Part shown: positions 516 to 32,782 of the stretch, piece by piece
Layout: each line of letters starts with the position of its first letter
Numbering within the stretch: the stretch's first letter is position 1
Origin: Candidatus Micrarchaeota archaeon
Lineage (GTDB): Archaea > Micrarchaeota > Micrarchaeia > Anstonellales > Bilamarchaeaceae
DNA: 64,000 nt
Reading direction: 5' to 3'
Assembly (NCBI GenBank): GCA_038046805.1
Contig: JBBSVO010000006.1
Location: 172,976-236,975 of the forward strand
Notes under the pieces: model-generated
What the model was told of the DNA's origin: nothing
Database searches by the model: none
What the model saw: the letters and a program-made list of their open reading frames with translations, nothing else
Made by a program: the position numbers and the translations under genes

Positions 516-676
516 TGTATCTCCTCAGAATTTAGATTACAATCCTATGTTCAGAAACGAATATAAATTATGACTTTCAATCCTGTTTGGTACGAATGTC
601 ATCAACAAATAGATTGTCCAAATCCAAAATCCAGGAAACTGCCGTTCCAGTCTCTCAGATTTCTCAGAAATCCGAG

Positions 677-1729
677 ATGCTTGCCAAAAAGAACCCGGAT
701 GGAACCATAACCTGTCTTGCCTGCGCAAGATATTGCAAAATCCCGGAAGGTCAGGCCGGATTCTGCGGAGTGCGGGCAAACGATGACAGGAAGCTCAAAC
801 TTTTAGTCTATGGAAAGCCGTGCGCAATCTGGGTTGATCCTGTTGAGAAAAAGCCATTGTTTCATTTTCTTCCGGGGAGCAAAAGCTATTCCATCGGGAC
901 GTTTGGTTGTGATTTCGCATGCGATTTTTGTCAGAATTTTGACATTTCACAAGCCCCTTCCGAAGCGCGAGTCCGCGATCCAAAAGGCTGGAGAGATTAT
1001 TTTCAGAGGCTTATCGACAAGCTGGAGTACGTGCCACCGGAAACAATCGTGAGCCGCGCAATTGAAAGCGGATGCAAATCAATCTCATTCACCTACAACG
1101 AACCGACAATATTCACAGAATACGCGCTTGACATAATGAAGCTCGGGAAAAAGGAGGGGTTGCGGTTCATCTATGTTACAAATGGCTATGAATCGCGCGA
1201 ATGTTGGGATGCACTCGCACCTTACCTAACGGCTGCAAATATCGACCTAAAGGCATTCAACCAGAATTTCTATGGAAAATTGTGCAAGGCAAATTTAGAG
1301 CCAGTTAAAGAATCAATTCTTTATGTAAAAAAGAAATATCCAAAAATGTGGATTGAAATAACGACCCTTCTTGTTCCAGGCTGGAATGATACTGAAAACG
1401 AACTTCTAGATGAGGCAAAATGGCTCGCTGCGATAGACGCAGGCATGCCTTGGCATGTGACCGCGTTTCATCCGGACTATAAGATGCAAGACTCAGAGTC
1501 TACAAAACCTGAGACGCTGATGCGTGCAAGGGAAATCGGGCGGAGCGTTGGCTTAAATTATGTCTATTGCGGAAATCTTGGTTTCAGCTATTCAAATTAT
1601 GAAACAACGGTTTGTCCGAAGTGCAAGAAAGAATTAATAATCCGGGCTGGTTTCACTGTAACGAATAATAATGTCATTGACGGCAAATGCAGGTTTTGCG
1701 GAGAAGGAATTCCGGGTGTTTGGAAATGA
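677..1729 (+). CDS. amrS: AmmeMemoRadiSam system radical SAM enzyme (PFL-activating-enzyme-like)
   Basis: CDFACDFC (CxxxCxxC) radical-SAM motif, an N-terminal Cys cluster (CLACARYC…FCGV) and a C-terminal CPKC…CRFC zinc-ribbon-like tail. Lies beside MEMO1-like and AMMECR1-like genes. The ORF track starts at 587; the internal ATG at 677 fits the family length (~350 aa). Confidence 0.75.
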   Translation: MLAKKNPDGTITCLACARYCKIPEGQAGFCGVRANDDRKLKLLVYGKPCAIWVDPVEKKPLFHFLPGSKSYSIGTFGCDFACDFCQNFDISQAPSEARVRDPKGWRDYFQRLIDKLEYVPPETIVSRAIESGCKSISFTYNEPTIFTEYALDIMKLGKKEGLRFIYVTNGYESRECWDALAPYLTAANIDLKAFNQNFYGKLCKANLEPVKESILYVKKKYPKMWIEITTLLVPGWNDTENELLDEAKWLAAIDAGMPWHVTAFHPDYKMQDSESTKPETLMRAREIGRSVGLNYVYCGNLGFSYSNYETTVCPKCKKELIIRAGFTVTNNNVIDGKCRFCGEGIPGVWK

Positions 1730-2571
1730 AAGTGAAGCCATCAGGAGAGGAAGAAACCGAAGTCATTCTGCGTCCTCCAGCAGTCGCCGGAATGTTTTAC
1801 CCTGATGATCCGGAAGAGCTTGAAGACATGATAAAAGGATTCGTGGAAAGGGCAAAGGAAGAAACCATTTCCGGCGCACTTCGCGGTCTTGTTGTTCCGC
1901 ACGCGGGTTACATATATTCCGGGACCGTTGCAGCCGTAGGATATAAACTTCTTGCGCAGCATGCACAACATGCAAAAAACATCTTTTTGTTTGGCCCTTC
2001 ACATCATTCATACTTCAATGGGTTAGCGGAATCAGGAATGAATGCCTGGGAAACACCTCTTGGAAGGATAAGTGCAAAGCCAGCCGGAGGCAGTCTTAAA
2101 AGTGGTGGTCTGATCTCCCTTAATCCCGCAGCGCATGCTCCTGAGCATTGTCTTGAAGTGCAGTTGCCGTTCCTTCAGACAATCCTTGGGAAAGATCCAG
2201 ATTCTTTCTCAATTATTCCGCTCTTAACTGGAGATGTTTCTTCTGCGGCAGTTGCAAAGGCAATCGAAGAGAATTTTGACAAGGGCAGCGATTCGTTTTT
2301 CATTGCAAGCTCGGATTTGAGCCATTATAATCCCTATCAGCGGGCAGTGGAGCTGGATGGAATTGCGAACAAGGTAGTTCCGGCCATTGACATACCAACA
2401 ATGCAAACACGTGGGGATGCGTGCGGAAAAACATCAATTTTAATTTTAATGTATCTGGCAAAGTTAAAAGGATGGAAGGGAAAATTTCTGGAGTATAAGA
2501 ATTCCGGGGACACAGCCGGGGATAAAATGCGCGTAGTTGGTTATGGCTGCTATGCGTTCTATGAAGAATAG
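1726..2571 (+). CDS. amrB: AmmeMemoRadiSam system protein B (MEMO1 family)
   Basis: GMFYPDDPEEL…LVVPHAGYIYSG…GPSHH motifs typical of Memo/dioxygenase-like proteins. Its ATG overlaps the amrS stop (ATGA). Confidence 0.75.
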   Translation: MKVKPSGEEETEVILRPPAVAGMFYPDDPEELEDMIKGFVERAKEETISGALRGLVVPHAGYIYSGTVAAVGYKLLAQHAQHAKNIFLFGPSHHSYFNGLAESGMNAWETPLGRISAKPAGGSLKSGGLISLNPAAHAPEHCLEVQLPFLQTILGKDPDSFSIIPLLTGDVSSAAVAKAIEENFDKGSDSFFIASSDLSHYNPYQRAVELDGIANKVVPAIDIPTMQTRGDACGKTSILILMYLAKLKGWKGKFLEYKNSGDTAGDKMRVVGYGCYAFYEE

Positions 2572-2592
2572 ATATGGATCGGAGGGGTAGAT

Positions 2593-3084
2593 ATGGAAAT
2601 CGCGATATTTTCAACTGGCGGAACAATAGATGATATTGACTTGGATTCCGTGACTGACAAATCGCGCGAAACCTATCTTCCATCTGCTTTTGAACAGGCA
2701 AAAATCAGCAAAGAGATTAAAGTAACAAGAAAAATTTTAATGAAAAAGGATAGCCGGGAAATAACCGATTCGGACCGTGAACTGATCGCAAAAGAATGCG
2801 AGAAATGCATGGAAAGCCGAATATTGATAACCCACGGGACGTTTACCATGGCCGAGACTGCGGCGTATCTGGGAAAAAGGATAAGCGACAAAACGATTGT
2901 TCTGACTGGTTCAATGATCCCGCTTACAGAGCCAAAAAATGATGCAGAATTCAATTTGGGTGGGGCATTTATCGCGGTCCAGCTTCTGCCCGTAGGCGTG
3001 TACGTAGTGTTCAACGGAATAGTTTTTCATTGGTACAATGTAAAGAAGAATATAGAAGGTGGGTATTTCAAGAAGTTGTTTTAG
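2593..3084 (+). CDS. stand-alone L-asparaginase N-terminal-domain-like protein (163 aa)
   Basis: IAIFSTGGTID…ITHGTFTMAETAAYL…IVLTGSMIP matches the asparaginase/GatD N-domain motifs (TGGTI, hGTDTM, VvTGAMrP). No C-terminal domain is present. Confidence 0.5.
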   Translation: MEIAIFSTGGTIDDIDLDSVTDKSRETYLPSAFEQAKISKEIKVTRKILMKKDSREITDSDRELIAKECEKCMESRILITHGTFTMAETAAYLGKRISDKTIVLTGSMIPLTEPKNDAEFNLGGAFIAVQLLPVGVYVVFNGIVFHWYNVKKNIEGGYFKKLF

Positions 3085-3098
3085 GGCAAGGTGTATTC

Positions 3099-3365
3099 AT
3101 GCCAGACATTAGCGTAATTGCGGAAATCCAAAAAATAAAAGAGCGAAACGTTCGCGTTGAATCAGATAAAGCATGGGAAACCAGCTGGGCAAGGCGCGGC
3201 CTGCTCGCGGTAGCAACCTACGTCGTGGTCAGTCTATTCCTCGTATCAATCAATGCCCCGAATCCATGGATAAATGCACTTATCCCGGCTGGCGCGTATG
3301 TTCTTCAGACGCTCACAGTGCCTGTGCTAAAGGATTGGTGGGTTATCAATATGTACAAAAAATAA
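3099..3365 (+). CDS. small membrane protein (hypothetical)
   Basis: ORF in operon context. Two hydrophobic helices (LLAVATYVVVSLFLVSI, ALIPAGAYVLQTL). Confidence 0.3.
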   Translation: MPDISVIAEIQKIKERNVRVESDKAWETSWARRGLLAVATYVVVSLFLVSINAPNPWINALIPAGAYVLQTLTVPVLKDWWVINMYKK

Positions 3366-3368
3366 TGG

Positions 3369-4952
3369 TTGAATTTCATGTTTGACCCGCTCTTAAGTAA
3401 AGCCTGGAAAGATGCTTGTCGAGTCCTTTTTGGACAGGAGATAGGTGAACTCCAAGATTATAGCGATTGGCTTGCAGAAATGGTTGATGCTCCAATAGTA
3501 AAAAAATCTAGTATTTCTGGAAAAGAAGTCATTCATTCAAGGGCGGACTATTCAGATTCTGCACGGTCGATAAGCCTTGAAGAAATAGACATCGGAAAAA
3601 AGTTCAACCCACTCAGTATAAACGAAATAAAGGATATTGATAGCATAATCGAGGCAATTCAAGATAGGATTTTTTATACTGGAAATATCATACTTGGCAA
3701 TTCAAAGGAAGTGCAAAAAAGCTCGAATATAAATGACAGTTTTTACATCTATAATACAACTCTTTCCGGGAATTCAAAATACATGGCTTTTTGCACCCTT
3801 GCGAGGTTGGACTCATATGGTTTTGGAGGAAATGCTTTCAGTCAATGCGATTTCTGCATCAAATGTCATGAACTTACGCGCGTGAAAAGATCATTTGAAC
3901 TGTGGATGAGCCAGGATTGCTCTGATTGCTATTACTCGCATGGATTGAAAAACAGTTCAAATTGCTTTTTTTGCTTTAACCTGGACAATGCGCGATACAC
4001 TATAGGAAATTTGCAATTGCCACCAGATAAGTATGCAGAACTGAAAACCAAACTGATTTCTGAAATAGTGGATGAGTTAAAACGTGAAAAGAGAATACCT
4101 TCTCTTACTGAGATAGTACGGGATTGCGATGGTGAGATACGTTTACCTTCCAGTAATTCAAAAGTTGCAGTTAAGCAACCAGTCGACCAGAAAAAAATAG
4201 ATGGGGAATTTGTCAAGACCTTTGAAATACTATTCAAAAAAAGACCATCAAAAAACATTGACGAATATGCATCTTGGTTATCCAGACACGTGAGAGGATT
4301 TGAAAGATGCAAATCCGCGGCAAGCGGAAGCGACGTATTTCTTGCAAGATATGGAAATTATTGCGACTTACCCAAGAATCGTCTTTTAACTTTGGATGAA
4401 GCAAAGGGAATAGGCCAAACTTTAAAACTAACTGCCGAGGATGTAAACTGCATTAGTTTCAAAAACATCGGTAAAAACCTGGGAAAGATCGCATTTTTCA
4501 ATACAGACATCCAGGATGGGCAAAATGCGAATAATTTTGAGTGCACCATAACGATAGATGCGTTTAACTGCCATAGGTCAGTATGCAGCGTATACTCTAA
4601 ATTTTGCGCTTATTCTTTTTGGCCAAGAAGTTCACAACACATATTTGGCGGGGATACTGTCTTTGATTCAGCCTTTTGTATCAATAGTTATAACTCAGTA
4701 AATCTTCAGAGATGTATGGAAATGGATGGCTGCAACAGCTGTTCTGATTCTTATTTCTGCCATAACTGCGAAAATCTCCAGAATTCGATGTTCTGCTTCA
4801 ATACAAAAAACAAAAGATACGCGATCGGCAATGCCGAATTGGAACGGGAGAGCTATGCAAAAATAAAAGAGGGCATTCTGGAACAGATATACCAGGAACT
4901 CGAAAAGAGTGGAAAAAGCAAATATGATATTTTTAGCCTTGGAGAAACGTAA
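3369..4952 (+). CDS. Cys-rich repeat protein, fused two-module form (uncharacterised family)
   Basis: 527 aa with an internal duplication. Each half ends in C..C..NS.FCFN..N.RY.IGN…Y..LK..L..EI..EL (residues ~200-240 and ~480-520). The N-half is homologous to ORF 30397..31170 and the C-half to ORF 29626..30387. TTG start at 3369 per the ORF track, with an alternative ATG at 3378. Confidence 0.6.
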   Translation: MNFMFDPLLSKAWKDACRVLFGQEIGELQDYSDWLAEMVDAPIVKKSSISGKEVIHSRADYSDSARSISLEEIDIGKKFNPLSINEIKDIDSIIEAIQDRIFYTGNIILGNSKEVQKSSNINDSFYIYNTTLSGNSKYMAFCTLARLDSYGFGGNAFSQCDFCIKCHELTRVKRSFELWMSQDCSDCYYSHGLKNSSNCFFCFNLDNARYTIGNLQLPPDKYAELKTKLISEIVDELKREKRIPSLTEIVRDCDGEIRLPSSNSKVAVKQPVDQKKIDGEFVKTFEILFKKRPSKNIDEYASWLSRHVRGFERCKSAASGSDVFLARYGNYCDLPKNRLLTLDEAKGIGQTLKLTAEDVNCISFKNIGKNLGKIAFFNTDIQDGQNANNFECTITIDAFNCHRSVCSVYSKFCAYSFWPRSSQHIFGGDTVFDSAFCINSYNSVNLQRCMEMDGCNSCSDSYFCHNCENLQNSMFCFNTKNKRYAIGNAELERESYAKIKEGILEQIYQELEKSGKSKYDIFSLGET

Positions 4953-4982
4953 GGATTAAAGTCATCACTAACGTTTTGTTCC

Positions 4983-5576
4983 ATGATCCCCATGTCCGAT
5001 TCGGCTTTCACAAAACCAGAACGCGAATTCCTGCTCAAGTTGGCAAGGCGCGCAATAGAGCATTATCTTAAATCCGGCACGCGTTTGGATATAAAGCCGA
5101 GCGAAGTTCCGAGCGAGCGGCTCATAAAAGACGGTGCGGTTTTTGTTACTCTTTACGCGCGCAAGGACAACTCGCTCCGCGGATGCATCGGTTCTCTTGA
5201 GGCAAAACGCCCGCTTGTTTTTGATGTTGTTGAAAACGCGCTTCATTCAGCATTTGGTGATCCGCGTTTTCCTCCCCTCAAACGCGAGGAGCTGTCGAAC
5301 GTGCGGATAGAAATCTCTATCCTCACAGAACCAAAACCCCTTAAAGTATCAGACAAGGACGACCTTCTTAGTAAACTTATTCCGAACAAGCACGGGTTAA
5401 TTATCCAAAAAGGTTTTGCAAGGGCAACCTTTCTGCCAGTCGTATGGGAAGAATTGAAGAAAAAAGAGGATTTTCTCACGCATCTATGCCAAAAGGCAGG
5501 GCTTTATCCTGATGAATGGAAAGATACAAGGGAAATGAAATTCTTTGTTTATGAGGCGGAGAAGATTGAGGAATGA
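4983..5576 (+). CDS. amrA: AmmeMemoRadiSam system protein A (AMMECR1 domain)
   Basis: GAVFVTL…LRGCIGSLEAKRPL…AFGDPRFPPL is characteristic AMMECR1. Confidence 0.8.
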   Translation: MIPMSDSAFTKPEREFLLKLARRAIEHYLKSGTRLDIKPSEVPSERLIKDGAVFVTLYARKDNSLRGCIGSLEAKRPLVFDVVENALHSAFGDPRFPPLKREELSNVRIEISILTEPKPLKVSDKDDLLSKLIPNKHGLIIQKGFARATFLPVVWEELKKKEDFLTHLCQKAGLYPDEWKDTREMKFFVYEAEKIEE

Positions 5577-5618
5577 AACATCTAAGGTTTTTTAAATAGT
5601 TGCCAATAATATAATTTC

Positions 5619-6596
5619 ATGAATTGTAAGTTTAGGAATACTGCCCATCCAGTATCTGCAAAGTCAGTGCGGATCGCTGGAGTGCCCGGGATAGAACTTT
5701 TCATAACCCTTAGAACAAGAACGTGCAGTTGGAAAAAAGAAACTGGCGGATGCACATTCTGTGGAGTAGGGGGTCTTGATGGCGATATGCCACCTCTGTC
5801 TTTCAGCGAGGCAAATCTCCAGGTTGAAGGTTCGATCAGGGACTTCAAAAGCCAGGGTGGGGATGTTAGTGCAGTCACAAAAGTCTCATTTATTTCAATG
5901 AGTGACAGCCTTCTCAATCCAATGACAATTGAGGAAAGGGCCCTGAGAATTGCGATGGAAACAGCAGTCAGAGCATTTCCAAACGTGTCTTGTTTATCTG
6001 TAGAATCCCGCGCGGATATGCTGCATTCTGATTATCTGAACCGATTATGGGATTTCATGCAAAACGAGTTTGGAAACGGAGTTAGTGGAGAGGTTGCAGT
6101 TGGAGTGGAAACTGCCTCCGAGTACAACAGAAATCTTTTAGGAAAGGGAATTTCAGATGCGGTGCTTGTATCTGCATCACGAGTATTGTCCGACACAATG
6201 TGGAGTATGCGCGGAAGTTTAATCTATGCACTTTTTGAACATGAACCTCTAGCAAGAGTCCTGGCATTAAAGAACGGAATAGACTTAATGGCTGGACTTG
6301 GCGAGAGAATGCGCACGTACACTTCAATACTTTTGCTGCGTGGGTATGTCCCTGAGGATATGGCTAGTTCAAATTTGTTCCGCGATTTTGTTGAAGTTCC
6401 TGACGAGGTGGTGTTGCGAGAGTTGCGGGAAGCAGCACTACATGCAAAAAGACGCAAGCTTCATTTTGAAATTGACTCAACAACCGCAGATCAGGAAGCT
6501 GTCAGAGCAACTTTGGGTATCATGAGTCCAGAATACCGTGCTGCGCTTGATAGATATAATCAGAGTCTTGACCCGCGCGAATTGGTGCTCAAATAA
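5619..6596 (+). CDS. radical-SAM-like protein with atypical Cx8CxxC cluster (TIGR01210 / archaeosine RaSEA-like)
   Basis: CSWKKETGGCTFCG N-terminal Cys cluster. ~325 aa with the layout of the ELP3-like archaeal tRNA-modification radical SAMs. Confidence 0.45.
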   Translation: MNCKFRNTAHPVSAKSVRIAGVPGIELFITLRTRTCSWKKETGGCTFCGVGGLDGDMPPLSFSEANLQVEGSIRDFKSQGGDVSAVTKVSFISMSDSLLNPMTIEERALRIAMETAVRAFPNVSCLSVESRADMLHSDYLNRLWDFMQNEFGNGVSGEVAVGVETASEYNRNLLGKGISDAVLVSASRVLSDTMWSMRGSLIYALFEHEPLARVLALKNGIDLMAGLGERMRTYTSILLLRGYVPEDMASSNLFRDFVEVPDEVVLRELREAALHAKRRKLHFEIDSTTADQEAVRATLGIMSPEYRAALDRYNQSLDPRELVLK

Positions 6597-6781
6597 AAAA
6601 AGAGATAATTCTTACATCGTCCCTACCAGTCTTCTTGCAGCGCGTCTTGTGTCAGTAAATTCCGTTTCATCACGAATATATTCCAATTGGTGGCGTTGGT
6701 TATGTTCTCCGAGCGTCTTCACGGCCATTTTTCTTGCACTATCATTATCTGAGTAGGTCGCTATCATACTAAGCTCAGTTG

Positions 6782-7147
6782 TTATTCGTTTAATCTCCTG
6801 TCATCCTCTCTTGCGTTCAAATGCGAAAGTGCATCTATAGACTGTAGGCGTGCGCTTTGTCTATTCTTTGTTTCCAGATATTCCCTAGCTAACATTCTTA
6901 CCACTCCGACCATCTCCGCGGAATGATTTCTAATTGCTTTTTTGGACCAGTCAAAACCTTCCCGGCTGTGAACTGCACCCACAACTGCATTACGTGCGTC
7001 CAGTGTTCTTGTTTCAATTGTTTCCCGAGGATTTCTTTCAACCTCGCGGCTCACTTTGTTTTGAAGCAGAGTTGCCAACCCCCTCACGTTTATTCCATTA
7101 GGAACTCTTCTTCCGCTTATTATATCCGCTACTTCACGTTGAGCCAT
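6782..7147 (-). CDS. hypothetical protein
   Basis: 121-aa ORF with no recognisable motif. Confidence 0.3.
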   Translation of the reverse strand: MAQREVADIISGRRVPNGINVRGLATLLQNKVSREVERNPRETIETRTLDARNAVVGAVHSREGFDWSKKAIRNHSAEMVGVVRMLAREYLETKNRQSARLQSIDALSHLNAREDDRRLNE

Positions 7148-7203
7148 CTAATCACCAGTCCAGTTCTTTGGCCACATGATTTTATACCCTTATCTCTGAA
7201 TCG

Positions 7204-7467
7204 GTGAATTGCATATATTTTTATACTTTATTCTACCAAAGTATACTCATGTATACTACCATAAAAATTGCAGAAGAGCTTAAGGAAAAACTAAGCAATA
7301 TGCGGACATATGAAAGCGAGACATATGCTGAGATCATAGAAGACCTTATTGAAGACCGTCTTTCTCTCAACCCATCCTTCGTAAAAGAAATCGAAGAACG
7401 AAGAAGAGAGTACAAATCCGGAAAAACCATTTCTTTCGAAGATCTGAAAAAAGAGATGAAACGATAA
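7204..7467 (+). CDS. putative antitoxin (partner of RelE/ParE toxin)
   Basis: 87-aa acidic protein immediately upstream of, and overlapping, the toxin gene. Confidence 0.45.
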   Translation: MNCIYFYTLFYQSILMYTTIKIAEELKEKLSNMRTYESETYAEIIEDLIEDRLSLNPSFVKEIEERRREYKSGKTISFEDLKKEMKR

Positions 7468-7718
7468 TGTATTCTATAGATTTTACCGAATCCGCGCGAA
7501 AGGAGTTTCTACGTATGCCCACGCAGGAACAAGAGCGCATTGATAGCGTGCTTGATCGCATTAGATTAAAGCCCTACTTTTTTGCTATGCGTCTGAGCGG
7601 TTCAAAAGCATATCGTATCCGCGTTGGAAAATTGCGAATTATCCTGGATATCCTGGAAGAGAATCAGCAAATAATTGTTCTCAAGCTAGGAAATCGGGAA
7701 ACCGTATACTTACCGTGA
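7467..7718 (+). CDS. type II toxin RelE/ParE family
   Basis: 83 aa. YSIDFTESARKEFLRMP…KLRIGKLRIILDI…VLKLGNRETVY fits the RelE/ParE fold pattern. Confidence 0.6.
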   Translation: MYSIDFTESARKEFLRMPTQEQERIDSVLDRIRLKPYFFAMRLSGSKAYRIRVGKLRIILDILEENQQIIVLKLGNRETVYLP

Positions 7719-19126: not shown

Positions 19127-21271
19127 TTAAGCAGCCAGGGCAGTTATTCTATCAGCTATTCTTTCGGCATTTGTATTCCTACATATGACAAATGGAATTC
19201 CCCTGCTTCTGCATATCGATGTTGCGCTTCCGGATGCGTTGTGGCCGATATGAGTTACTACTATCACAACTGTGTCGTTCTCCCCAATCGCAGCGGCAAT
19301 CGCGCTGGGTTTTACATAACTTCCGTCTATAACTCTTACTTCCTTTCCAGTTCTTTCAGCCAATGTGTCTTGGATATTTGTCATGATGTTGCCACCACAA
19401 ATCACGATAATTCTTCCAACGCTTGTTTGCACAGCAACACCTTTTTCATCAATATAATTTTGCATTATTTCTATAATAGTTCTTTCTCGGGTTTCTGCGT
19501 TGTGTTCCCGAGATCCTGCTACTGCATTAATCCAATCCAGAATCTCTTTTTCATCGGCTGCAATCAACCTGACGAGTTCTGCAAACGTCCTGCGTGCATT
19601 GTCTGATGCAAAGATTGTTTTAAGTGAAAAATCACTAAGTCCTGCAGTTATTCCTGCAATTCTTGCAAGAGCATCTACACCATGCTCCCTGAGACTGCTG
19701 AATCTGGTTGGCCTGACGCCATTTCGTTCAAGTCGTACGTATACTCCTCTGAATAATCTTACTTGGTCATCTTCTATATCTGGAAATGCCCTTTTTACCA
19801 GGGCTTCAATCCCAAGTTCTTCCTCACGTTTTTTCCCTTCCTTTCGCCTATCTATTATTTCTATAGCATTTTCTAATTCCCCATATTCCATTGCTTGCAA
19901 TGTTGCTTTTGCAATTTCCCTATCTTCCGCATTTCCAGTAAGGAACAGAGCAAGATCTTTCCATCTTTCGGATATGAAAATTATCGAGGCAGCCCTTATG
20001 ATTTGGGCAAGCTCTGTAATATGTACGCTTGGTTCTATCTGTTTTAGTAGACTATGGAATGTTGCGTTTCCTGAGTTATTTACTGTCTCTTCAGCAATCT
20101 CCAGGATATATGCGAGAAAATCAGAACGACTTACCATTCTTTTTGGCTCAGTAAGTCTCTTATATAACTCCAGGTACTCCGGGGTTGTTTCAATTTTTTT
20201 CAATATTTTTATCGCGGTTTGCACAGTTAACCCTCCAACCAATTCAAAGGCGCAAGATTCCTTTTTTACCGCAAACACATCAAGTAATCCCGTGAGTTCC
20301 TTTAGTTCTTCAAATCTCCTGGGGGTTATCCATCTTTGATTTTCCATAACTGCTCTTGCAGTTCTATCAGTTTTTATTCCTCTTACAATTTCAGCAGCTT
20401 CGTCCAGCACTTGCGTGTCAAAGAAAAGGAGATATGGGCAAAGTCCTGCTTCGCTTGCAAGCATGCTCTTTCCCAACACCGTGTCCATTCTTTGCTCGTA
20501 CATTGCGTGTACATTTGCGCTTTTTTTCGCGTGGGTATAACAGATTGCCTTGAAACATGCAGTCTTTGTCCATTCTTTTTCAGAAATGAATTCCTTTGCA
20601 ATTCCTAAAAATCTATCAATAAATGTCCGGATGTGGGTGCGGACTTCTTCATCCATGTAGCATCTTATTCCACTCATATATTCTCTTAGTGCACATTTTC
20701 CAACATTAAGCATGTGTTCCATATTTCCTGGATCAAGGATTGCACGTATGTCATCTCTCAAACTGGGGCTTATTGCTACGCCTAAATTGCAGCTGGTTCC
20801 TTCCAAACCATCTATCGCTCTCAATGTTTCTATGATTCTGCTATATCTTTCACTTGCGCCTTTGTCTAAATCGTCATATCCTAGTGTTACGGTTTCCTCC
20901 AGTCTTTGTGTAATGCGTTCAGTTGCAGGCCCTGCGATTTCATCAAGTGCTCTATCTAGTTTTGCAAAACTTTCCTCCAATTTAGCAATAACCCGTTTTT
21001 GGTTTCCTTCAGAATTCGCCATCAAATCTATAATCCCCAAATATGTAGTATCCATTTCATGTATCCTTGTATCAAAAAGTTCTTGTCCTTTTACCAGATC
21101 CTCTGCTTCTAACCCCAAGCTATTCAGTACGTCTCGCTTATTTTGGAGAAATAATTGTCTTAGCTCTTCTCCAAGTTGTCTTAGTCTTTCACGTTCCGGG
21201 GTGTGGAAATTAGGTCCACCCACACTTCGTATTCTTGCAGCTGGCGGAATCCTGAGCATTAGCTTTGGCAT
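19127..21271 (-). CDS. large hypothetical protein with DUF2325-like C-terminal domain
   Basis: 714 aa and mostly helical. The C-terminal ~90 aa (VIDGSYVKPSAIAAAIGENDTVVIVVTHIGHNASGS…GIPFVICRNTN) fits the DUF2325 pattern. Confidence 0.45.
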   Translation of the reverse strand: MPKLMLRIPPAARIRSVGGPNFHTPERERLRQLGEELRQLFLQNKRDVLNSLGLEAEDLVKGQELFDTRIHEMDTTYLGIIDLMANSEGNQKRVIAKLEESFAKLDRALDEIAGPATERITQRLEETVTLGYDDLDKGASERYSRIIETLRAIDGLEGTSCNLGVAISPSLRDDIRAILDPGNMEHMLNVGKCALREYMSGIRCYMDEEVRTHIRTFIDRFLGIAKEFISEKEWTKTACFKAICYTHAKKSANVHAMYEQRMDTVLGKSMLASEAGLCPYLLFFDTQVLDEAAEIVRGIKTDRTARAVMENQRWITPRRFEELKELTGLLDVFAVKKESCAFELVGGLTVQTAIKILKKIETTPEYLELYKRLTEPKRMVSRSDFLAYILEIAEETVNNSGNATFHSLLKQIEPSVHITELAQIIRAASIIFISERWKDLALFLTGNAEDREIAKATLQAMEYGELENAIEIIDRRKEGKKREEELGIEALVKRAFPDIEDDQVRLFRGVYVRLERNGVRPTRFSSLREHGVDALARIAGITAGLSDFSLKTIFASDNARRTFAELVRLIAADEKEILDWINAVAGSREHNAETRERTIIEIMQNYIDEKGVAVQTSVGRIIVICGGNIMTNIQDTLAERTGKEVRVIDGSYVKPSAIAAAIGENDTVVIVVTHIGHNASGSATSICRSRGIPFVICRNTNAERIADRITALAA

Positions 21272-29625: not shown

Positions 29626-30387
29626 TCATTCAAGCGCATTGTAACTATCCGTCTCAAACGTACAGTTCTTTTCGAGCGCGCCCGCGATTTCCCAGCAAAT
29701 CTTTTCCTTTATCTTCATGTAGCTCTCGCGCCCGACCTCAACATTCCCGATTGCGTAATTCTTATTTTTCACATTAAAACAGAACATTGAATTATGCACA
29801 TTCTCAACATTATGGCAGAACATTGAATTGGAACAATTCCGTGCTAAATCCATCTCCATGCATGCGGAAAGGTTTGAGGTATTGTAGCATTTCATGCAGA
29901 ATTTTGAAGACGCTACACGATAGCAACCAAATAAGGATTCCGAATCTATTGTTGAGAATGAATATGCGGCATTCCTAGTTTTGAAAATGTCAAACGATTT
30001 GTACACGTTGATGCAGTCCAGGTACTCCGTAGTCTCGGATACGTTTATGTTCGTTCCTTCCACGAAATCCGGGACGAATAATGCGTTCTGTTTGAGTTTT
30101 TCCGTTATTGTCGAGAGCGTTTCGTTCGCTCCAATTTCAATTTTTTTGTTTTCCGCTTGCTGCAAATTGTTCCATGAAACCACTTTCCCGCGCGGGATTT
30201 TTCCAAAGAATGCGTAGTTTGGGAGGTATGTGCTTCCAGTCCCGATAACCGAGCGGATGGTTTCGCCATTCGAAATCCGTGCGGAAAACCAATCCTCGAA
30301 TTTGTCAAGTGGCGAGAGTGCGGTTCCGATTATTAATCTTGTAGTAGTTCCGAACGATTTTTCCAGTTCAGGATTTGTGTTTGCCAT
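29626..30387 (-). CDS. Cys-rich repeat protein, C-module (split form)
   Basis: Homologous to the C-half of 3369..4952 (CMEMD…NSMFCFNVKNKNYAIGNVEVGRESYMKIKE). Confidence 0.55.
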   Translation of the reverse strand: MANTNPELEKSFGTTTRLIIGTALSPLDKFEDWFSARISNGETIRSVIGTGSTYLPNYAFFGKIPRGKVVSWNNLQQAENKKIEIGANETLSTITEKLKQNALFVPDFVEGTNINVSETTEYLDCINVYKSFDIFKTRNAAYSFSTIDSESLFGCYRVASSKFCMKCYNTSNLSACMEMDLARNCSNSMFCHNVENVHNSMFCFNVKNKNYAIGNVEVGRESYMKIKEKICWEIAGALEKNCTFETDSYNALE

Positions 30388-30396
30388 GATAATGCC

Positions 30397-31170
30397 TCAC
30401 GTATCCGGCCCAGCAATCTCGAACAAGGACGGAAATTTCTTATTCCGTGCGAGTTCATCCGCAATTTCCGCAATAAGTTTAGCTTTCAGTACAAGATACT
30501 TCTCTTTCGGCAATTCATTATTTCCGATTATGTTCCGCTTTGAAGTCTGATTAAATGAAAACAAAGCATCGTGACAGCTTCGGCAATTGAAAGAAAAGAA
30601 AAGGTCAGACGAATTTATGGAAAGATACGCTTCAAGGCATCGCACGGATTTGAATGTCACCTGCGTTCTTATTGCAAACCTTACTTCGCCAACAAGCATG
30701 CATCCATAAACGTTTTCGCATTCCCTTGCTCCGTAGGTATATGCGACGTTTTTCGAACGTATGACCTGGTGCGAAGCCAGTGTAAACGCAGCATCATTGC
30801 ACGCATCGCTTTGCTCAACTTCAACACAATTGCCAATATTACTATTCCCGCAATAGTAAAGCCGCTCGCTTATAGCGGAACGGATTGAATCAATATCCTT
30901 TATGTCGTTCACATTGATGGCAGGAGTCGCCTGCTTATCAATCTCGTCAAGCGAGACAAATCCCGCCTCGCGCGAGTAATATTTTCGTGATAAATACACG
31001 TCCTTTCCCGATATCGCAGACCGCATCAGAAGCGGCTTCTCAACCATTTCTGAAAGATATTCTTGACATTCCGAAAGCTGTCCGATTTCCTTTCCGAGGA
31101 GGATTTTTGCGGTAGAAAAAAATTGCGAATCGAAATCCATCTGGTGCCCCCAACAAACTACACTACTCAA
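30397..31170 (-). CDS. Cys-rich repeat protein, N-module (split form)
   Basis: Homologous to the N-half of 3369..4952 (LLGKEIGQLSECQEYLSEMVEKP…IKDIDSIRSAISERLYY…FSFNQTSKRNIIGN). Confidence 0.55.
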   Translation of the reverse strand: MSSVVCWGHQMDFDSQFFSTAKILLGKEIGQLSECQEYLSEMVEKPLLMRSAISGKDVYLSRKYYSREAGFVSLDEIDKQATPAINVNDIKDIDSIRSAISERLYYCGNSNIGNCVEVEQSDACNDAAFTLASHQVIRSKNVAYTYGARECENVYGCMLVGEVRFAIRTQVTFKSVRCLEAYLSINSSDLFFSFNCRSCHDALFSFNQTSKRNIIGNNELPKEKYLVLKAKLIAEIADELARNKKFPSLFEIAGPDT

Positions 31171-31511
31171 AATATTTTTGTTCCTACAACTGCTTCTTTT
31201 TCAGGCATCAGCAAGGCAGTTCCGTGTTTTTCAGTCCTGGCTCCTAAAACAAGCACTTCTGAAATTGCATTTGCGATCTGTTTTGGAGGAAAATTAATAA
31301 CACAGATAACCCGTCGTCCCATTAATTCCTCTTTTGAGTAATTCGTTGCCTGTGCACATGATTTTTTTATTCCAATCTCAGATCCAAAATCTATCTTTAG
31401 TCTATAGCTTGGTTTTTTTGCTTCTTGAAAATCTTCTATTTCGATTATTTTTCCAACCCTGATTTCTACTTTTTCAAAATCGTTCCAGGTTATCTGTTCT
31501 ATCTTTTCCAT
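31167..31511 (-). CDS. tRNA-binding protein (Trbp111/CsaA/EMAP-II-like OB domain)
   Basis: KIDFGSEIGIKKSCAQ…RRVICVINFPPKQIANAISEVLVLG is characteristic. 4-nt overlap with the downstream Cys-rich N-module gene. Confidence 0.7.
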   Translation of the reverse strand: MEKIEQITWNDFEKVEIRVGKIIEIEDFQEAKKPSYRLKIDFGSEIGIKKSCAQATNYSKEELMGRRVICVINFPPKQIANAISEVLVLGARTEKHGTALLMPEKEAVVGTKIF

Positions 31512-31771: not shown

Positions 31772-32782
31772 GTGGCGACCAAGATGCAGAAAGAAGGCGA
31801 AGATGGACCAGTAAAGTTGGATAGGTTGGACTACCAAATCCTCTATGAGTTGGACTGCGACGGGTTCCAATCATTGTCAAAAATCGGAAAGAAGCTGCGC
31901 GCAGGCAGGGACGTGATGCATTACCGCGTAAAACGTCTTGAAGAACTCGGAATAATAAAAAAATACGTTCCGATTATTGATTACGGAAAGATGGGTTACA
32001 CAGCCGGTGCAGTGTATATCAAATTCCATCACGACACTCCCGAGCTTCGGGCGGAAATCATAGAATACTACAAAAACAATAACGATGTCTGGTGGCTTTT
32101 CGACATGACGCCGAACTTTGATATTGCGTTCGGATGGTTTGGCAAGAGTCTCGCGGAACTCACCGACAAACGAATCGAGCTGCTCCGCAAATACAGAAAA
32201 TATTTCCGGGAATTTAAATTCCGCATTTACAACTGCCATCATCATTTCAAAAGGGATTATCTGATGCAGCCGCAAGGCAGGCGGGACGCCCGCACTTTGC
32301 CATCGGTTGTCGTTTCCGCAGGAACCGAAAAAATCACGGACGAAACTGATGATAAAATCCTGAAAATCCTTTCCGAAAACGCGCGGCTCCCATACACGGA
32401 AATCGCAAATAAGCTAGAACTCTCCGCAGCACAAGTTCATTATCGCATCCAGAATCTAAAATCAAAAAAAATCCTGCTGGGTGCAAAACCAATGCTTGAT
32501 TTGCAAAAACTGGGGCACGGGCTTTTCAAACTGGACATTTACCTGGATGATTATTCAATCTACGAAGACCTGAGAAAATTCGTTTTCTCGCTTCCAAATG
32601 CCGTCTATGCTTATGACGTAATAGGAGGCGCAGATATAGAGCTTGATTTTGAAGTCAAAAATTTCCCAGAACTTTCGCAGATTCAGGACATCATCAAATC
32701 AAAATTCGGAAAGTCAATCAGCCATATGGAATATTATCATTTCCCGAAAGAGTATAAGCTGGGCTATTTCCCGGGGATATAA
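31772..32782 (+). CDS. tandem (duplicated) Lrp/AsnC-family transcriptional regulator
   Basis: Two HTH_AsnC modules (LDYQILYELDCDG… and DKILKILSENARLPYTEIANKL…). Confidence 0.7.
   Translation: MATKMQKEGEDGPVKLDRLDYQILYELDCDGFQSLSKIGKKLRAGRDVMHYRVKRLEELGIIKKYVPIIDYGKMGYTAGAVYIKFHHDTPELRAEIIEYYKNNNDVWWLFDMTPNFDIAFGWFGKSLAELTDKRIELLRKYRKYFREFKFRIYNCHHHFKRDYLMQPQGRRDARTLPSVVVSAGTEKITDETDDKILKILSENARLPYTEIANKLELSAAQVHYRIQNLKSKKILLGAKPMLDLQKLGHGLFKLDIYLDDYSIYEDLRKFVFSLPNAVYAYDVIGGADIELDFEVKNFPELSQIQDIIKSKFGKSISHMEYYHFPKEYKLGYFPGI

What the first reader, a model, noticed from the sequence alone, without database searches (positions are those of the whole stretch)
587..6596. AmmeMemoRadiSam operon with three inserted genes and a second radical-SAM gene
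The AmmeMemoRadiSam trio (radical SAM 677-1729, MEMO1-like 1726-2571, AMMECR1-like 4983-5576) has no assigned biochemical function. Here the operon is split by a stand-alone asparaginase-N-domain protein, a small membrane protein and a 527-aa Cys-rich repeat protein (3369-4952). An atypical Cx8CxxC radical-SAM-like gene (5619-6596, TIGR01210/RaSEA-like) follows directly. Every gene is co-directional with overlaps or gaps under ~45 nt, which suggests one transcription unit. The Cys-rich protein is therefore a candidate substrate or partner for the Amr radical-SAM machinery.
Basis: partly seen in the sequence, partly recalled or inferred. Interest (0 to 1): 0.8.

Follow-up and report, generated by a model that had tools for sequence, protein, structure and literature searches.

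The report
Amr operon split by passenger genes
A genuine three-gene AmmeMemoRadiSam cluster in a tiny symbiotic archaeon (Micrarchaeota) is interrupted by three unrelated genes, but comparison with other genomes shows this is a recent, lineage-specific gene-order accident and not evidence that the cysteine-rich protein is the system's long-sought substrate.

Summary
The described genes are all present at the stated coordinates. AmrS, AmrB and AmrA score far above the curated cut-offs. Between amrB and amrA lie a 163-aa asparaginase-N-domain gene, a 90-aa membrane-protein gene and a 527-aa Cys-rich gene. A radical-SAM-fold gene follows.

The functional reading does not hold. The split arrangement occurs only in the window organism and its nearest relatives (Micrarchaeota UBA10214 type, about 80% nucleotide identity). 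Another related locus has AmrS-AmrB-AmrA contiguous.

The Cys-rich protein belongs to a large, unannotated, Micrarchaeota-specific family. It has two modules and is predicted to contain a Cys/Ser/Asn-ladder beta-solenoid. There are at least 14 copies in some genomes, usually in tandem arrays flanked by HTH regulators and a HerA-like ATPase. Of 76 loci from 42 genomes, one has the full Amr trio next to it.

The "second radical SAM" is far below the RaSEA cut-off (44.7 vs 212 bits). It has its own TATA box, is missing from the nearest relative, and sits in unrelated contexts elsewhere. Gaps under 45 nt are the genome norm here.

Verdict: a known system with a lineage-specific insertion. The Cys-solenoid family is the more interesting by-product.

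The parts
587..1729 (+). amrS, the AmmeMemoRadiSam radical SAM enzyme. The likely start is ATG 596 or ATG 677. An ATATAAAT TATA-like box lies at about 565.
   Evidence: TIGR04337 scores 346.6 bits against a cut-off of 220, and PF04055 scores 68.8 bits. The CxxxCxxC motif is in the translation.
1726..2571 (+). amrB, the MEMO1-like AmmeMemoRadiSam protein B. Its ATG overlaps the amrS stop by 4 nt.
   Evidence: TIGR04336 scores 233.7 bits against a cut-off of 26, and PF01875 scores 168 bits.
2593..3084 (+). Inserted gene 1: a stand-alone asparaginase N-terminal-domain protein of 163 aa (AsnN). The TGGT nucleophile motif is kept, but HGTDT is changed to HGTFT. An SD-like GGAGGGG lies upstream.
   Evidence: PF00710 scores 89.6 bits, and all full-length asparaginase and GatD models are far below cut-off. 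The family has 891 homologues, including bacterial ones.
3093..3365 (+). Inserted gene 2: a 90-aa small membrane protein (TM90) with no family.
   Evidence: It has no Pfam or NCBIfam hit. A hydrophobic segment spans residues 33-51. Homologues occur in L011 (79%) and L020 (53%). dN/dS is 0.05 against L004.
3369..4952 (+). Inserted gene 3: the single-copy 'clade A' member of a Micrarchaeota-specific Cys-ladder beta-solenoid family. It has two modules, each with an alpha/beta head, a solenoid of CxxC repeats with a 9-residue period, and a long helix. The likely start is ATG 3378.
4983..5576 (+). amrA, the AMMECR1-like AmmeMemoRadiSam protein A.
   Evidence: TIGR04335 scores 203.6 bits against a cut-off of 99, and PF01871 scores 171 bits.
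5577..5618 (+). The amrA/next-gene spacer. It holds a T6 run (archaeal terminator-like) followed by a TTTAAATA TATA box at 5591-5598, 21-28 nt before ATG 5619.
   Evidence: The sequence is. TTTAAATA occurs only 9 times in 64 kb, and several copies lie upstream of ORF starts. Function is inferred, not shown.
5619..6596 (+). A separate accessory gene for a divergent radical-SAM-fold enzyme, distantly RaSEA/COG1244-like, with Cx8CxxC (Cx4CxxC in most homologues). It is not part of the Amr unit.
5574..7347 (.). A strain-variable 1.77-kb segment holding the RaSEA-like gene, a 121-aa ORF on the - strand and the 5' part of the antitoxin gene. The nearest relative has 35 nt in its place.
   Evidence: blastn of the window against L004 and L005.
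7204..7718 (+). A type II toxin-antitoxin pair bordering the variable segment: a DUF7557/RHH-like antitoxin (7204-7467) and a ParE-like toxin (7467-7718).
   Evidence: PF24434 scores 31.2 bits and PF05016 scores 21.3 bits. Only a 165-nt remnant survives in L004.

Best explanation
The locus is a standard AmmeMemoRadiSam trio (amrS-amrB-amrA) in a Micrarchaeota (DPANN) genome. A three-gene block has been inserted between amrB and amrA in one recent lineage.

The block holds a widespread short asparaginase-domain protein (AsnN), a small membrane protein, and the conserved single-copy 'clade A' member of a large Micrarchaeota-specific family of two-module Cys/Ser/Asn-ladder beta-solenoid proteins. 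Because the genome is extremely compact, the passengers are probably read through from the amr promoter. All six genes remain under purifying selection.

The passengers do their own job. Elsewhere the clade-A gene is paired with AsnN away from any Amr gene. Its paralogues form tandem arrays controlled by HTH_10 and AsnC-type regulators and flanked by a HerA/FtsK-like ATPase. Their many cysteines are best read as interior ladder residues of a solenoid, because they interchange freely with Ser. They do not look like radical-SAM target residues.

The downstream Cx8CxxC gene is an independent, separately promoted radical SAM enzyme of a rare Micrarchaeota family. It lies in a strain-variable segment next to a toxin-antitoxin pair.

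Shown: gene identities, distribution, synteny, and folds (the folds are predictions). Inferred: co-transcription, the passenger status of the block, and the structural role of the Cys residues.
For: **Family membership.** The three Amr proteins pass their curated cut-offs.

**The split order is confined to near relatives.** The same split order occurs only in near relatives at about 80% nucleotide identity: L004, L005 (the same contig as L011) and L087.

**An uninterrupted form exists.** L088 has AmrS (276 bits), AmrB (224 bits) and AmrA (198 bits) contiguous. AmrB ends at 3340 and AmrA starts at 3393.

**Other genomes have dispersed Amr genes.** AmrS is alone in L020, AmrB is alone in L021, and AmrA is alone in L089.

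**Cys-family census.**
- 347 relatives were found in GTDB species genomes, and all 76 loci fetched are named as Micrarchaeota, allied lineages or unclassified archaea.
- 212 genes lie in 74 of the 76 loci, from 42 assemblies, with up to 14 or more per genome. Two size classes exist, about 525 aa and about 255 aa.
- The search of representatives gave 338 clusters at 50% identity with E<=1e-30.
- An Amr gene lies within 10 kb in only 3 of 76 loci.

**Clade A.** Members at >=57% identity occur once per assembly in 11 assemblies. AsnN is adjacent or nearby in 6 of those 11 and in none of the paralogue loci.

**Array neighbours.** A HerA/DUF87/TrwB-like ATPase occurs in 26 loci, an AsnC-type double wHTH regulator in 19, and an HTH_10 regulator in 18.

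**Selection.** dN/dS is 0.05-0.10 for all six genes.

**RaSEA-like gene.**

**Spacing.** Short gaps are the genome norm.
Against: - The block is retained and co-oriented inside the operon in at least two diverged genomes, with saturated dS for most genes. It is therefore stable, and co-expression with Amr could have been co-opted.
- In the distant genome LFW-35 (L020), a genuine AmrS, AsnN, the clade-A gene and a TM90 homologue all lie within 10 kb. This could be residual functional linkage and not chance.
- No transcript data exist.
- Only 80 of the 347 family loci were inspected.
- The function of Amr itself is unknown, so a protein substrate cannot be excluded on chemical grounds.
Confidence: 0.72

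Rival explanations
1. Functional coupling. The AsnN-TM90-Cys527 block has been recruited into the Amr pathway. The Cys-rich protein would be the substrate or scaffold on which AmrS (radical SAM), AmrB (Memo) and AmrA (AMMECR1) act.
For: - The genes are tightly co-oriented inside the operon with SD-led internal genes.
- The arrangement is conserved in relatives despite high dS.
- Cys527 is the most conserved protein of the cluster, at 95% aa identity.
- AmrS, AsnN, clade A and TM90 are loosely close together in LFW-35.
Against: - The arrangement is restricted to one shallow lineage.
- The trio is contiguous in L088.
- Clade-A orthologues at 60-82% identity lie away from Amr genes.
- Amr is present across archaea and bacteria that lack this family entirely. 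Its breadth is known from TIGR04335-04337 (general knowledge), and the family's restriction is shown.
- Cys positions tolerate Ser.
- A gene-proximity rate of 3 in 76 loci is about chance.
Confidence: 0.1
2. The downstream Cx8CxxC enzyme is a second radical SAM component of an extended Amr system, or it is the organism's archaeosine RaSEA.
For: - It is co-directional, with a 42-nt gap after amrA.
- It has a radical SAM fold and a conserved three-Cys motif.
- Its best family hit is TIGR01210 RaSEA.
Against: - It scores 44.7 bits against a cut-off of 212.15.
- It is absent from the nearest relative, which keeps the Amr cluster.
- It has its own T-run and TATA box.
- Its homologues lie next to PQ-loop and thermosome genes, or antisense inside the ribosomal-protein operon, and never with Amr or ArcS.
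- Only 9 homologue clusters were found.
Confidence: 0.05
3. The insert is a piece of a mobile or variable element. It would be a Cys-solenoid cassette that moves around Micrarchaeota genomes and landed in the operon by chance, with no selective meaning for its position.
For: - The family occurs in many variable contexts and in arrays next to a HerA/VirD4-like ATPase.
- Cys527 has lower GC and GC3 (0.38 and 0.37) than its neighbours (0.42-0.47).
- Its dS against the relative (0.53) is lower than that of AmrS, AsnN, TM90 and AmrA (1.5-2.8).
- A toxin-antitoxin pair and an indel lie next door.
Against: - No integrase, transposase or flanking repeats were found at the insert borders.
- Clade A is single-copy and strongly conserved, like a core gene.
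- AsnN and TM90 have high dS, so the block did not arrive recently as a unit.
Confidence: 0.13

Closest known systems
AmmeMemoRadiSam system (TIGR04337 AmrS, TIGR04336 AmrB, TIGR04335 AmrA)
   Same: All three proteins score far above the curated cut-offs. AmrS has CxxxCxxC. The genes are co-directional in one cluster, with amrS and amrB overlapping.
   Different: The cluster is interrupted by three unrelated genes between amrB and amrA. That arrangement is seen only in this shallow Micrarchaeota lineage, and a related locus (L088) has the usual contiguous order.
RaSEA, archaeosine-biosynthesis radical SAM protein (TIGR01210 / COG1244)
   Same: It is the best and only NCBIfam hit, over the N-terminal half. 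The protein has a radical-SAM TIM-barrel fold and a non-canonical three-Cys motif near the N-terminus.
   Different: The score is 44.7 bits against a cut-off of 212.15. There is no Pfam Radical_SAM hit for the window protein. No ArcS neighbour is present. The family is tiny (9 clusters), confined to Micrarchaeota, and sits in scattered contexts.
Type I/II L-asparaginases and GatD (PF00710 N-terminal domain)
   Same: The N-terminal domain matches well (89.6 bits). The TGGT nucleophile motif and the VKKN lysine region are conserved.
   Different: The whole C-terminal domain, which completes the active site in the classical dimer, is missing. The Asp of HGTDT is variable (F, Y, D, I or M). The protein belongs to a widespread family of about 162-aa 'asparaginase domain-containing proteins' that is also found in bacteria.
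Cys-ladder beta-solenoids such as the Tenebrio antifreeze protein, curli CsgA and left-handed beta-helix acyltransferases

Membership tests
AmmeMemoRadiSam system | Radical SAM component matches TIGR04337 above its cut-off and has CxxxCxxC | tested here: met
   346.6 bits against a cut-off of 220. CDFACDFC is in the translation.
AmmeMemoRadiSam system | Memo-like component matches TIGR04336 above its cut-off | tested here: met
   233.7 bits against a cut-off of 26, and PF01875 scores 168 bits.
AmmeMemoRadiSam system | AMMECR1-like component matches TIGR04335 above its cut-off | tested here: met
   203.6 bits against a cut-off of 99, and PF01871 scores 171 bits.
AmmeMemoRadiSam system | The three genes are clustered | tested here: met
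   All three lie within 5 kb on one strand but are split by a 2.4-kb three-gene insert. The contiguous form is seen in L088.
AmmeMemoRadiSam system, extended to the insert genes | The insert genes recur next to Amr genes in independent lineages | tested here: not met
   This holds only in near relatives (L004, L005/L011, L087). Of 76 family loci, 3 have any Amr gene within 10 kb.
RaSEA (TIGR01210) | Score at or above the curated equivalog cut-off | tested here: not met
   44.7 bits against 212.15, and only profile positions 7-167 of 313 are matched.
RaSEA (TIGR01210) | Genomic or functional partnership with ArcS / archaeosine genes | tested here: inconclusive
   No ArcS-like neighbour is listed in the window cluster or in the homologue loci L008-L010. 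The rest of the genome was not searched.
Radical SAM superfamily | Partial TIM-barrel fold with a conserved three-Cys cluster motif near the N-terminus | tested here: met
L-asparaginase type I/II | Two-domain architecture (N and C domains) and scores above the subfamily cut-offs | tested here: not met
   The protein is 163 aa and has the N domain only. TIGR00519 scores 54.2 against 260.5, and TIGR00520 scores 47.6 against 314.3.
L-asparaginase type I/II | Catalytic motifs TGGT and HGTDT | tested here: inconclusive
   TGGT is conserved. The Asp of HGTDT is F in the window and is Y, D, I or M in orthologues.
Radical-SAM-modified peptide/protein substrates (RiPP-like) | A short precursor with leader and core, encoded next to its maturase across genomes | tested here: not met
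   The protein is 527 aa, folded and two-module. It is not co-located with AmrS outside one lineage.
Known anti-phage defence proteins (PADLOC) | Match to a defence-system model | tested here: not met
   Cys527, TM90, the RaSEA-like protein and an array paralogue give no hit, and AsnN only a chance-level one (E 0.007). The array-flanking ATPase gives only weak HerA/mad8 hits.

The most novel reading that the evidence does not exclude
The insertion is not neutral. In this lineage the strongly conserved clade-A Cys-solenoid protein, possibly together with AsnN and the small membrane protein, would have become a client or scaffold of the Amr machinery. That would give the first concrete, testable candidate macromolecular partner for the universally conserved but functionally unassigned AmmeMemoRadiSam / MEMO1-AMMECR1 system.

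A parallel unexcluded reading concerns the wider family. Its arrays of 3-10 tandem genes, an HTH regulator and a convergent HerA/VirD4-like ATPase could be a new DPANN-specific export, host-interaction or conflict system.
Probability: 0.08. Interest if true: 0.8.

Novelty: new variant of a known kind. Interest (0 to 1): 0.33.

Why it matters
The Amr trio has human homologues, MEMO1 and AMMECR1, and it is among the most widespread gene sets without an assigned biochemical function. A real substrate clue would therefore be valuable. This locus does not provide one. The apparent clue comes from gene-order shuffling in a very compact genome.

What remains useful:
- A clean example of why tight spacing is not evidence of an operon in DPANN genomes.
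- Recognition of a large, unannotated Micrarchaeota-specific protein family with a stereotyped array architecture. It takes up a few percent of some ~1-Mb genomes and has no Pfam model.
- A rare, divergent radical SAM family distantly related to RaSEA.

Tried and rejected
- **Bacterial promoter and terminator scan.** It was uninformative for an archaeon, and counts equalled the shuffles.
- **Rfam and tRNA scans of the window.** Nothing was found.
- **Pfam at E<=10 on Cys527, and on all 46 aligned family members at E<=1.** No recurrent family emerged.
- **PDB sequence searches for Cys527 and the RaSEA-like protein.** Only chance-level hits appeared.
- **A link between the Cys family and the neighbouring Pfam 'Heavy_Cys_CGP' protein in L001.** hhalign probability was 0.2%, so this was rejected.
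- **Foldseek against AFDB.** The library was not available.
- **Repeats or target-site duplications around the 5574-7347 indel.** None was convincing.
- **Literature.** 'AmmeMemoRadiSam' occurs only as an annotation label in 6 papers. The 2026 preprint on cysteine-rich repeats concerns eukaryotic repeats and is not about this family. The key comparative paper on Memo-AMMECR1 systems (Burroughs et al. 2019, PMC6664185) is not held.
- **Bacterial and archaeal AsnN contexts.** No conserved neighbour was found, so they gave no functional clue.
- **PADLOC.** The Cys family is not a known defence protein.

Full report
**Observation**

NCBIfam places three of them in the AmmeMemoRadiSam families, well above the curated cut-offs:
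- AmrS (587/677-1729) scores 346.6 bits on TIGR04337 against a cut-off of 220.
- AmrB (1726-2571) scores 233.7 bits on TIGR04336 against a cut-off of 26.
- AmrA (4983-5576) scores 203.6 bits on TIGR04335 against a cut-off of 99.

Three genes lie between amrB and amrA:
- A 163-aa protein that is only an asparaginase N-terminal domain (PF00710, 89.6 bits). All full-length asparaginase and GatD models are far below cut-off.
- A 90-aa hydrophobic protein with no family.
- A 527-aa protein with 24 Cys and no Pfam or NCBIfam hit, even at E<=10.

The downstream 325-aa protein has Cx8CxxC. It gives only a weak TIGR01210 (RaSEA) hit of 44.7 bits against a cut-off of 212.15.

One caveat applies to the spacing. 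Gaps under 45 nt do not mark an operon here. The window is about 93% coding, the median co-directional gap is 42 nt, and 52% of such gaps are under 45 nt.

**Organism**

The Cys-rich protein has 523 homologues. Every one that carries a source name is from Candidatus Micrarchaeota, Micrarchaeia, Anstonellaceae or Ca. ainarchaeum. The best match (95%) is from Micrarchaeota MAG UBA10214. The window is therefore from a DPANN Micrarchaeote.

**Is the split arrangement conserved?**

The nearest relatives are an ENA contig (L004), the UBA10214 contig (L005, the same contig as L011) and a JGI contig (L087), at about 80% nucleotide identity. They have the same order: AmrS-AmrB-AsnN-TM90-Cys-AmrA.

Beyond them the order dissolves.
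- The next-closest Amr locus recovered from metagenomes is L088, with AmrA at 61% identity. It has AmrS, AmrB and AmrA contiguous, with only 52 nt between the amrB and amrA ORFs. All three pass their cut-offs. This is the uninterrupted form of the site.
- In other genomes the Amr genes are scattered. A genuine AmrS stands alone in L020 (317 bits), a genuine AmrB stands alone in L021 (305 bits), and an AmrA stands alone in L089.
- Orthologues of the Cys protein at 60-82% identity sit in quite different places.

I fetched 76 loci of this family from 42 Micrarchaeota assemblies, with up to 10 kb on each side, and searched them with all seven window proteins.
- Only L011 has the Amr trio.
- L020 has AmrS 6.7 kb away, and L021 has AmrB 3.6 kb away on the other strand.
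- With genomes of roughly 1 Mb and one to three Amr loci per genome, about 1.5 to 4.5 such proximities are expected by chance (my estimate). There is therefore no enrichment.

**What the Cys-rich protein is**

It consists of two homologous modules of about 260 aa. An AlphaFold2 model built from a 46-sequence alignment has pLDDT 81.5 and pTM 0.83. Each module shows an alpha/beta head, a region poor in regular secondary structure, and a long helix.

The Cys-rich region has CxxC pairs at a strict 9-residue period, with Asn-rich turns (for example FCINCY...RC...SCRxC...FCHNCEN...CMFCFNxKN). Only C458 is invariant, and six further Cys columns are at least 90% conserved. The other Cys columns vary, often to Ser.

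I therefore read the cysteines as interior ladder residues of a cytoplasmic solenoid. I do not read them as metal ligands or modification sites. This is an inference from a predicted structure.

**The family**

- It has 347 hits in GTDB species genomes.
- It has 338 clusters at 50% identity with E<=1e-30 among 1.84 billion representatives.
- Among the fetched loci, 212 genes fall into two size classes, about 525 aa (two modules) and about 255 aa (one module). Some genomes have 14 or more copies.
- No Pfam, PDB or PADLOC relative was found.

Most copies lie in same-strand tandem arrays of 3-10 genes with a stereotyped frame. An HTH_10 regulator lies directly upstream (18 loci), or a double winged-helix AsnC-type regulator lies divergently (19 loci). 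A convergent 550-920-aa HerA/DUF87/TrwB-FtsK-like P-loop ATPase without TM segments follows (26 loci, usually within 20 nt).

The window has a second copy. It is present as two half-size genes (30397-31170 and 29626-30387, - strand), with a divergent AsnC-type regulator at 31772-32782.

**Clade A**

The copy inside the Amr cluster belongs to a distinct subgroup, which I call clade A. Members share at least 57% identity with it, and it occurs exactly once in each of 11 assemblies. All other copies are at most 50% identical.

Clade A is not in arrays. In 6 of 11 assemblies a 163-168-aa AsnN gene is adjacent or within a few kb. It lies immediately downstream in L012, L014 and L017. None of the 65 paralogue loci has one. 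So the recurrent pairing is clade A with AsnN, not with Amr.

AsnN itself is not specific to this pairing. It has 891 homologues at E<=1e-5, including many bacterial 'asparaginase domain-containing proteins' at about 47% identity, and its contexts are unrelated. Its TGGT nucleophile motif is conserved, but the Asp of HGTDT is variable.

**Selection**

Between the window and L004, all six genes have dN/dS of 0.05-0.10, so all are functional. Cys527 is the most conserved, at 95% aa identity. It also has a lower dS (0.53) than AmrS, AsnN, TM90 and AmrA (1.5-2.8), and a lower GC3 (0.37 against 0.41-0.50). This is unexplained. Codon constraint or more recent exchange are both possible.

**The 'second radical SAM'**

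It is not RaSEA by the curated test. Only 9 homologue clusters were found, and the only taxon any of them is named for is Micrarchaeota.

It is also not part of the Amr unit.
- The nearest relative has 35 nt in place of window 5574-7347, while keeping the Amr cluster.
- The 42-nt spacer after amrA holds a T6 run and a TTTAAATA box ending 21 nt before the ATG. That is the geometry of an archaeal leaderless promoter. The octamer occurs only 9 times in the window, and several copies lie upstream of ORFs.
- Homologues lie next to a PQ-loop gene and the thermosome, or antisense within the ribosomal-protein operon.
- The segment is bordered by a ParE/antitoxin pair, of which the relative keeps only a 165-nt remnant.

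**Mechanism, with confidence**

Most likely (about 0.7), a three-gene block was inserted between amrB and amrA in one shallow lineage of a compact genome. It is now read through from the amr promoter. Supporting sequence features are a TATA-like ATATAAAT about 25-30 nt before ATG 596, SD-like sequences before the AsnN and TM90 genes, and no strong TATA inside the block. All of this is inference.

The Amr trio does whatever it does in every other archaeon. The passengers keep their own roles. My best guess for those roles is that the clade-A solenoid is the ancestral, housekeeping member of the family and may work with the AsnN amidohydrolase-like protein. The array paralogues would be a regulated, diversified set handled by the HerA-like ATPase. 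That second part is speculative.

**Rivals**

- Genuine recruitment of the block into the Amr pathway: 0.10.
- The block as a mobile cassette: 0.13.
- The Cx8CxxC enzyme as an Amr or archaeosine component: 0.05.

**Comparison with what is known, and novelty**

The Amr system is known by annotation. Its biochemistry is not established. The literature held here mentions it only in passing. The one comparative analysis I know of, Burroughs et al. 2019, could not be read.

The locus is a gene-order variant of that known system. The Cys-solenoid family and its array architecture appear to be undescribed. It has no Pfam model, and no paper was found. However, it is tangential to the claim that was made.

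I score the finding as posed at low-to-moderate interest. The unexcluded possibility that the insertion marks a real Amr client would be of high interest, but I put it at about 8%.

Noticed in passing
L040 2170-21976, L045 4976-21478, L058, L063, L025, L072 (genome loci): Arrays of 3-10 tandem same-strand genes of the Cys-solenoid family have a stereotyped frame. The arrays mix about 525-aa two-module and about 255-aa one-module forms, often with overlapping stops and starts. An HTH_10 or AsnC-type regulator lies upstream and a convergent HerA/FtsK/TrwB-like ATPase lies downstream, with a weak CedD hit. Some ~1-Mb genomes have 14 or more copies. No Pfam or PADLOC model matches, and no paper was found.
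   Followed up: partly
L088 134-2410: The AmrS gene of a related metagenomic locus carries an in-frame intein of about 460 aa with a LAGLIDADG endonuclease domain (PF14890, PF14528, TIGR01445). It is inserted at about AmrS residue 85.
   Followed up: partly
window 29626-31170 (- strand), with 31167-31511 and 31772-32782: A second family copy (35% identity) is present as two adjacent half-size genes, one for the N-type module and one for the C-type module. A tRNA-binding-domain gene lies directly upstream of them on the same strand, and an AsnC-type double wHTH regulator lies divergently beyond it.
   Followed up: partly
window 7204-7718 and 5574-7347: A DUF7557/RHH antitoxin plus ParE toxin pair borders a 1.77-kb segment that is replaced by 35 nt in the nearest relative. 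That relative keeps only a 165-nt remnant of the toxin-antitoxin module. A 121-aa ORF at 6782-7147 (- strand) has no family.
   Followed up: partly
window 3369-4952 vs L004 8001-9569: Cys527 shows much lower synonymous divergence (dS 0.53) than the flanking AmrS, AsnN, TM90 and AmrA (1.5-2.8). It also has lower GC3 (0.37) than its neighbours. This is unexplained; codon constraint or recent exchange or conversion are possible.
   Followed up: no
L001 12364-13944 and L020 8679-9920: In two distant genomes a cysteinyl-tRNA synthetase gene lies immediately upstream of, or within 3 kb downstream of, the clade-A Cys-solenoid gene. This may be residual synteny or coincidence.
   Followed up: no
L020 2258-13423 (LFW-35, 920-kb contig): A genuine stand-alone AmrS, AsnN, the clade-A gene, a TM90 homologue and an M24 peptidase all lie within about 11 kb, interspersed with PurD, an ABC transporter and CysRS. 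The window relative L004 also has an M24 peptidase about 4 kb upstream of amrS. This is a possible remnant of an older neighbourhood.
   Followed up: partly
L009/L010 6001-7008: A homologue of the RaSEA-like radical SAM gene sits on the opposite strand inside the otherwise co-directional ribosomal-protein gene cluster, between the RNase P p29 and SUI1/S3 genes.
   Followed up: no
window 19127-21271 (- strand): A 714-aa protein matches only a C-terminal DUF2325 domain. The rest of the protein has no family.
   Followed up: no
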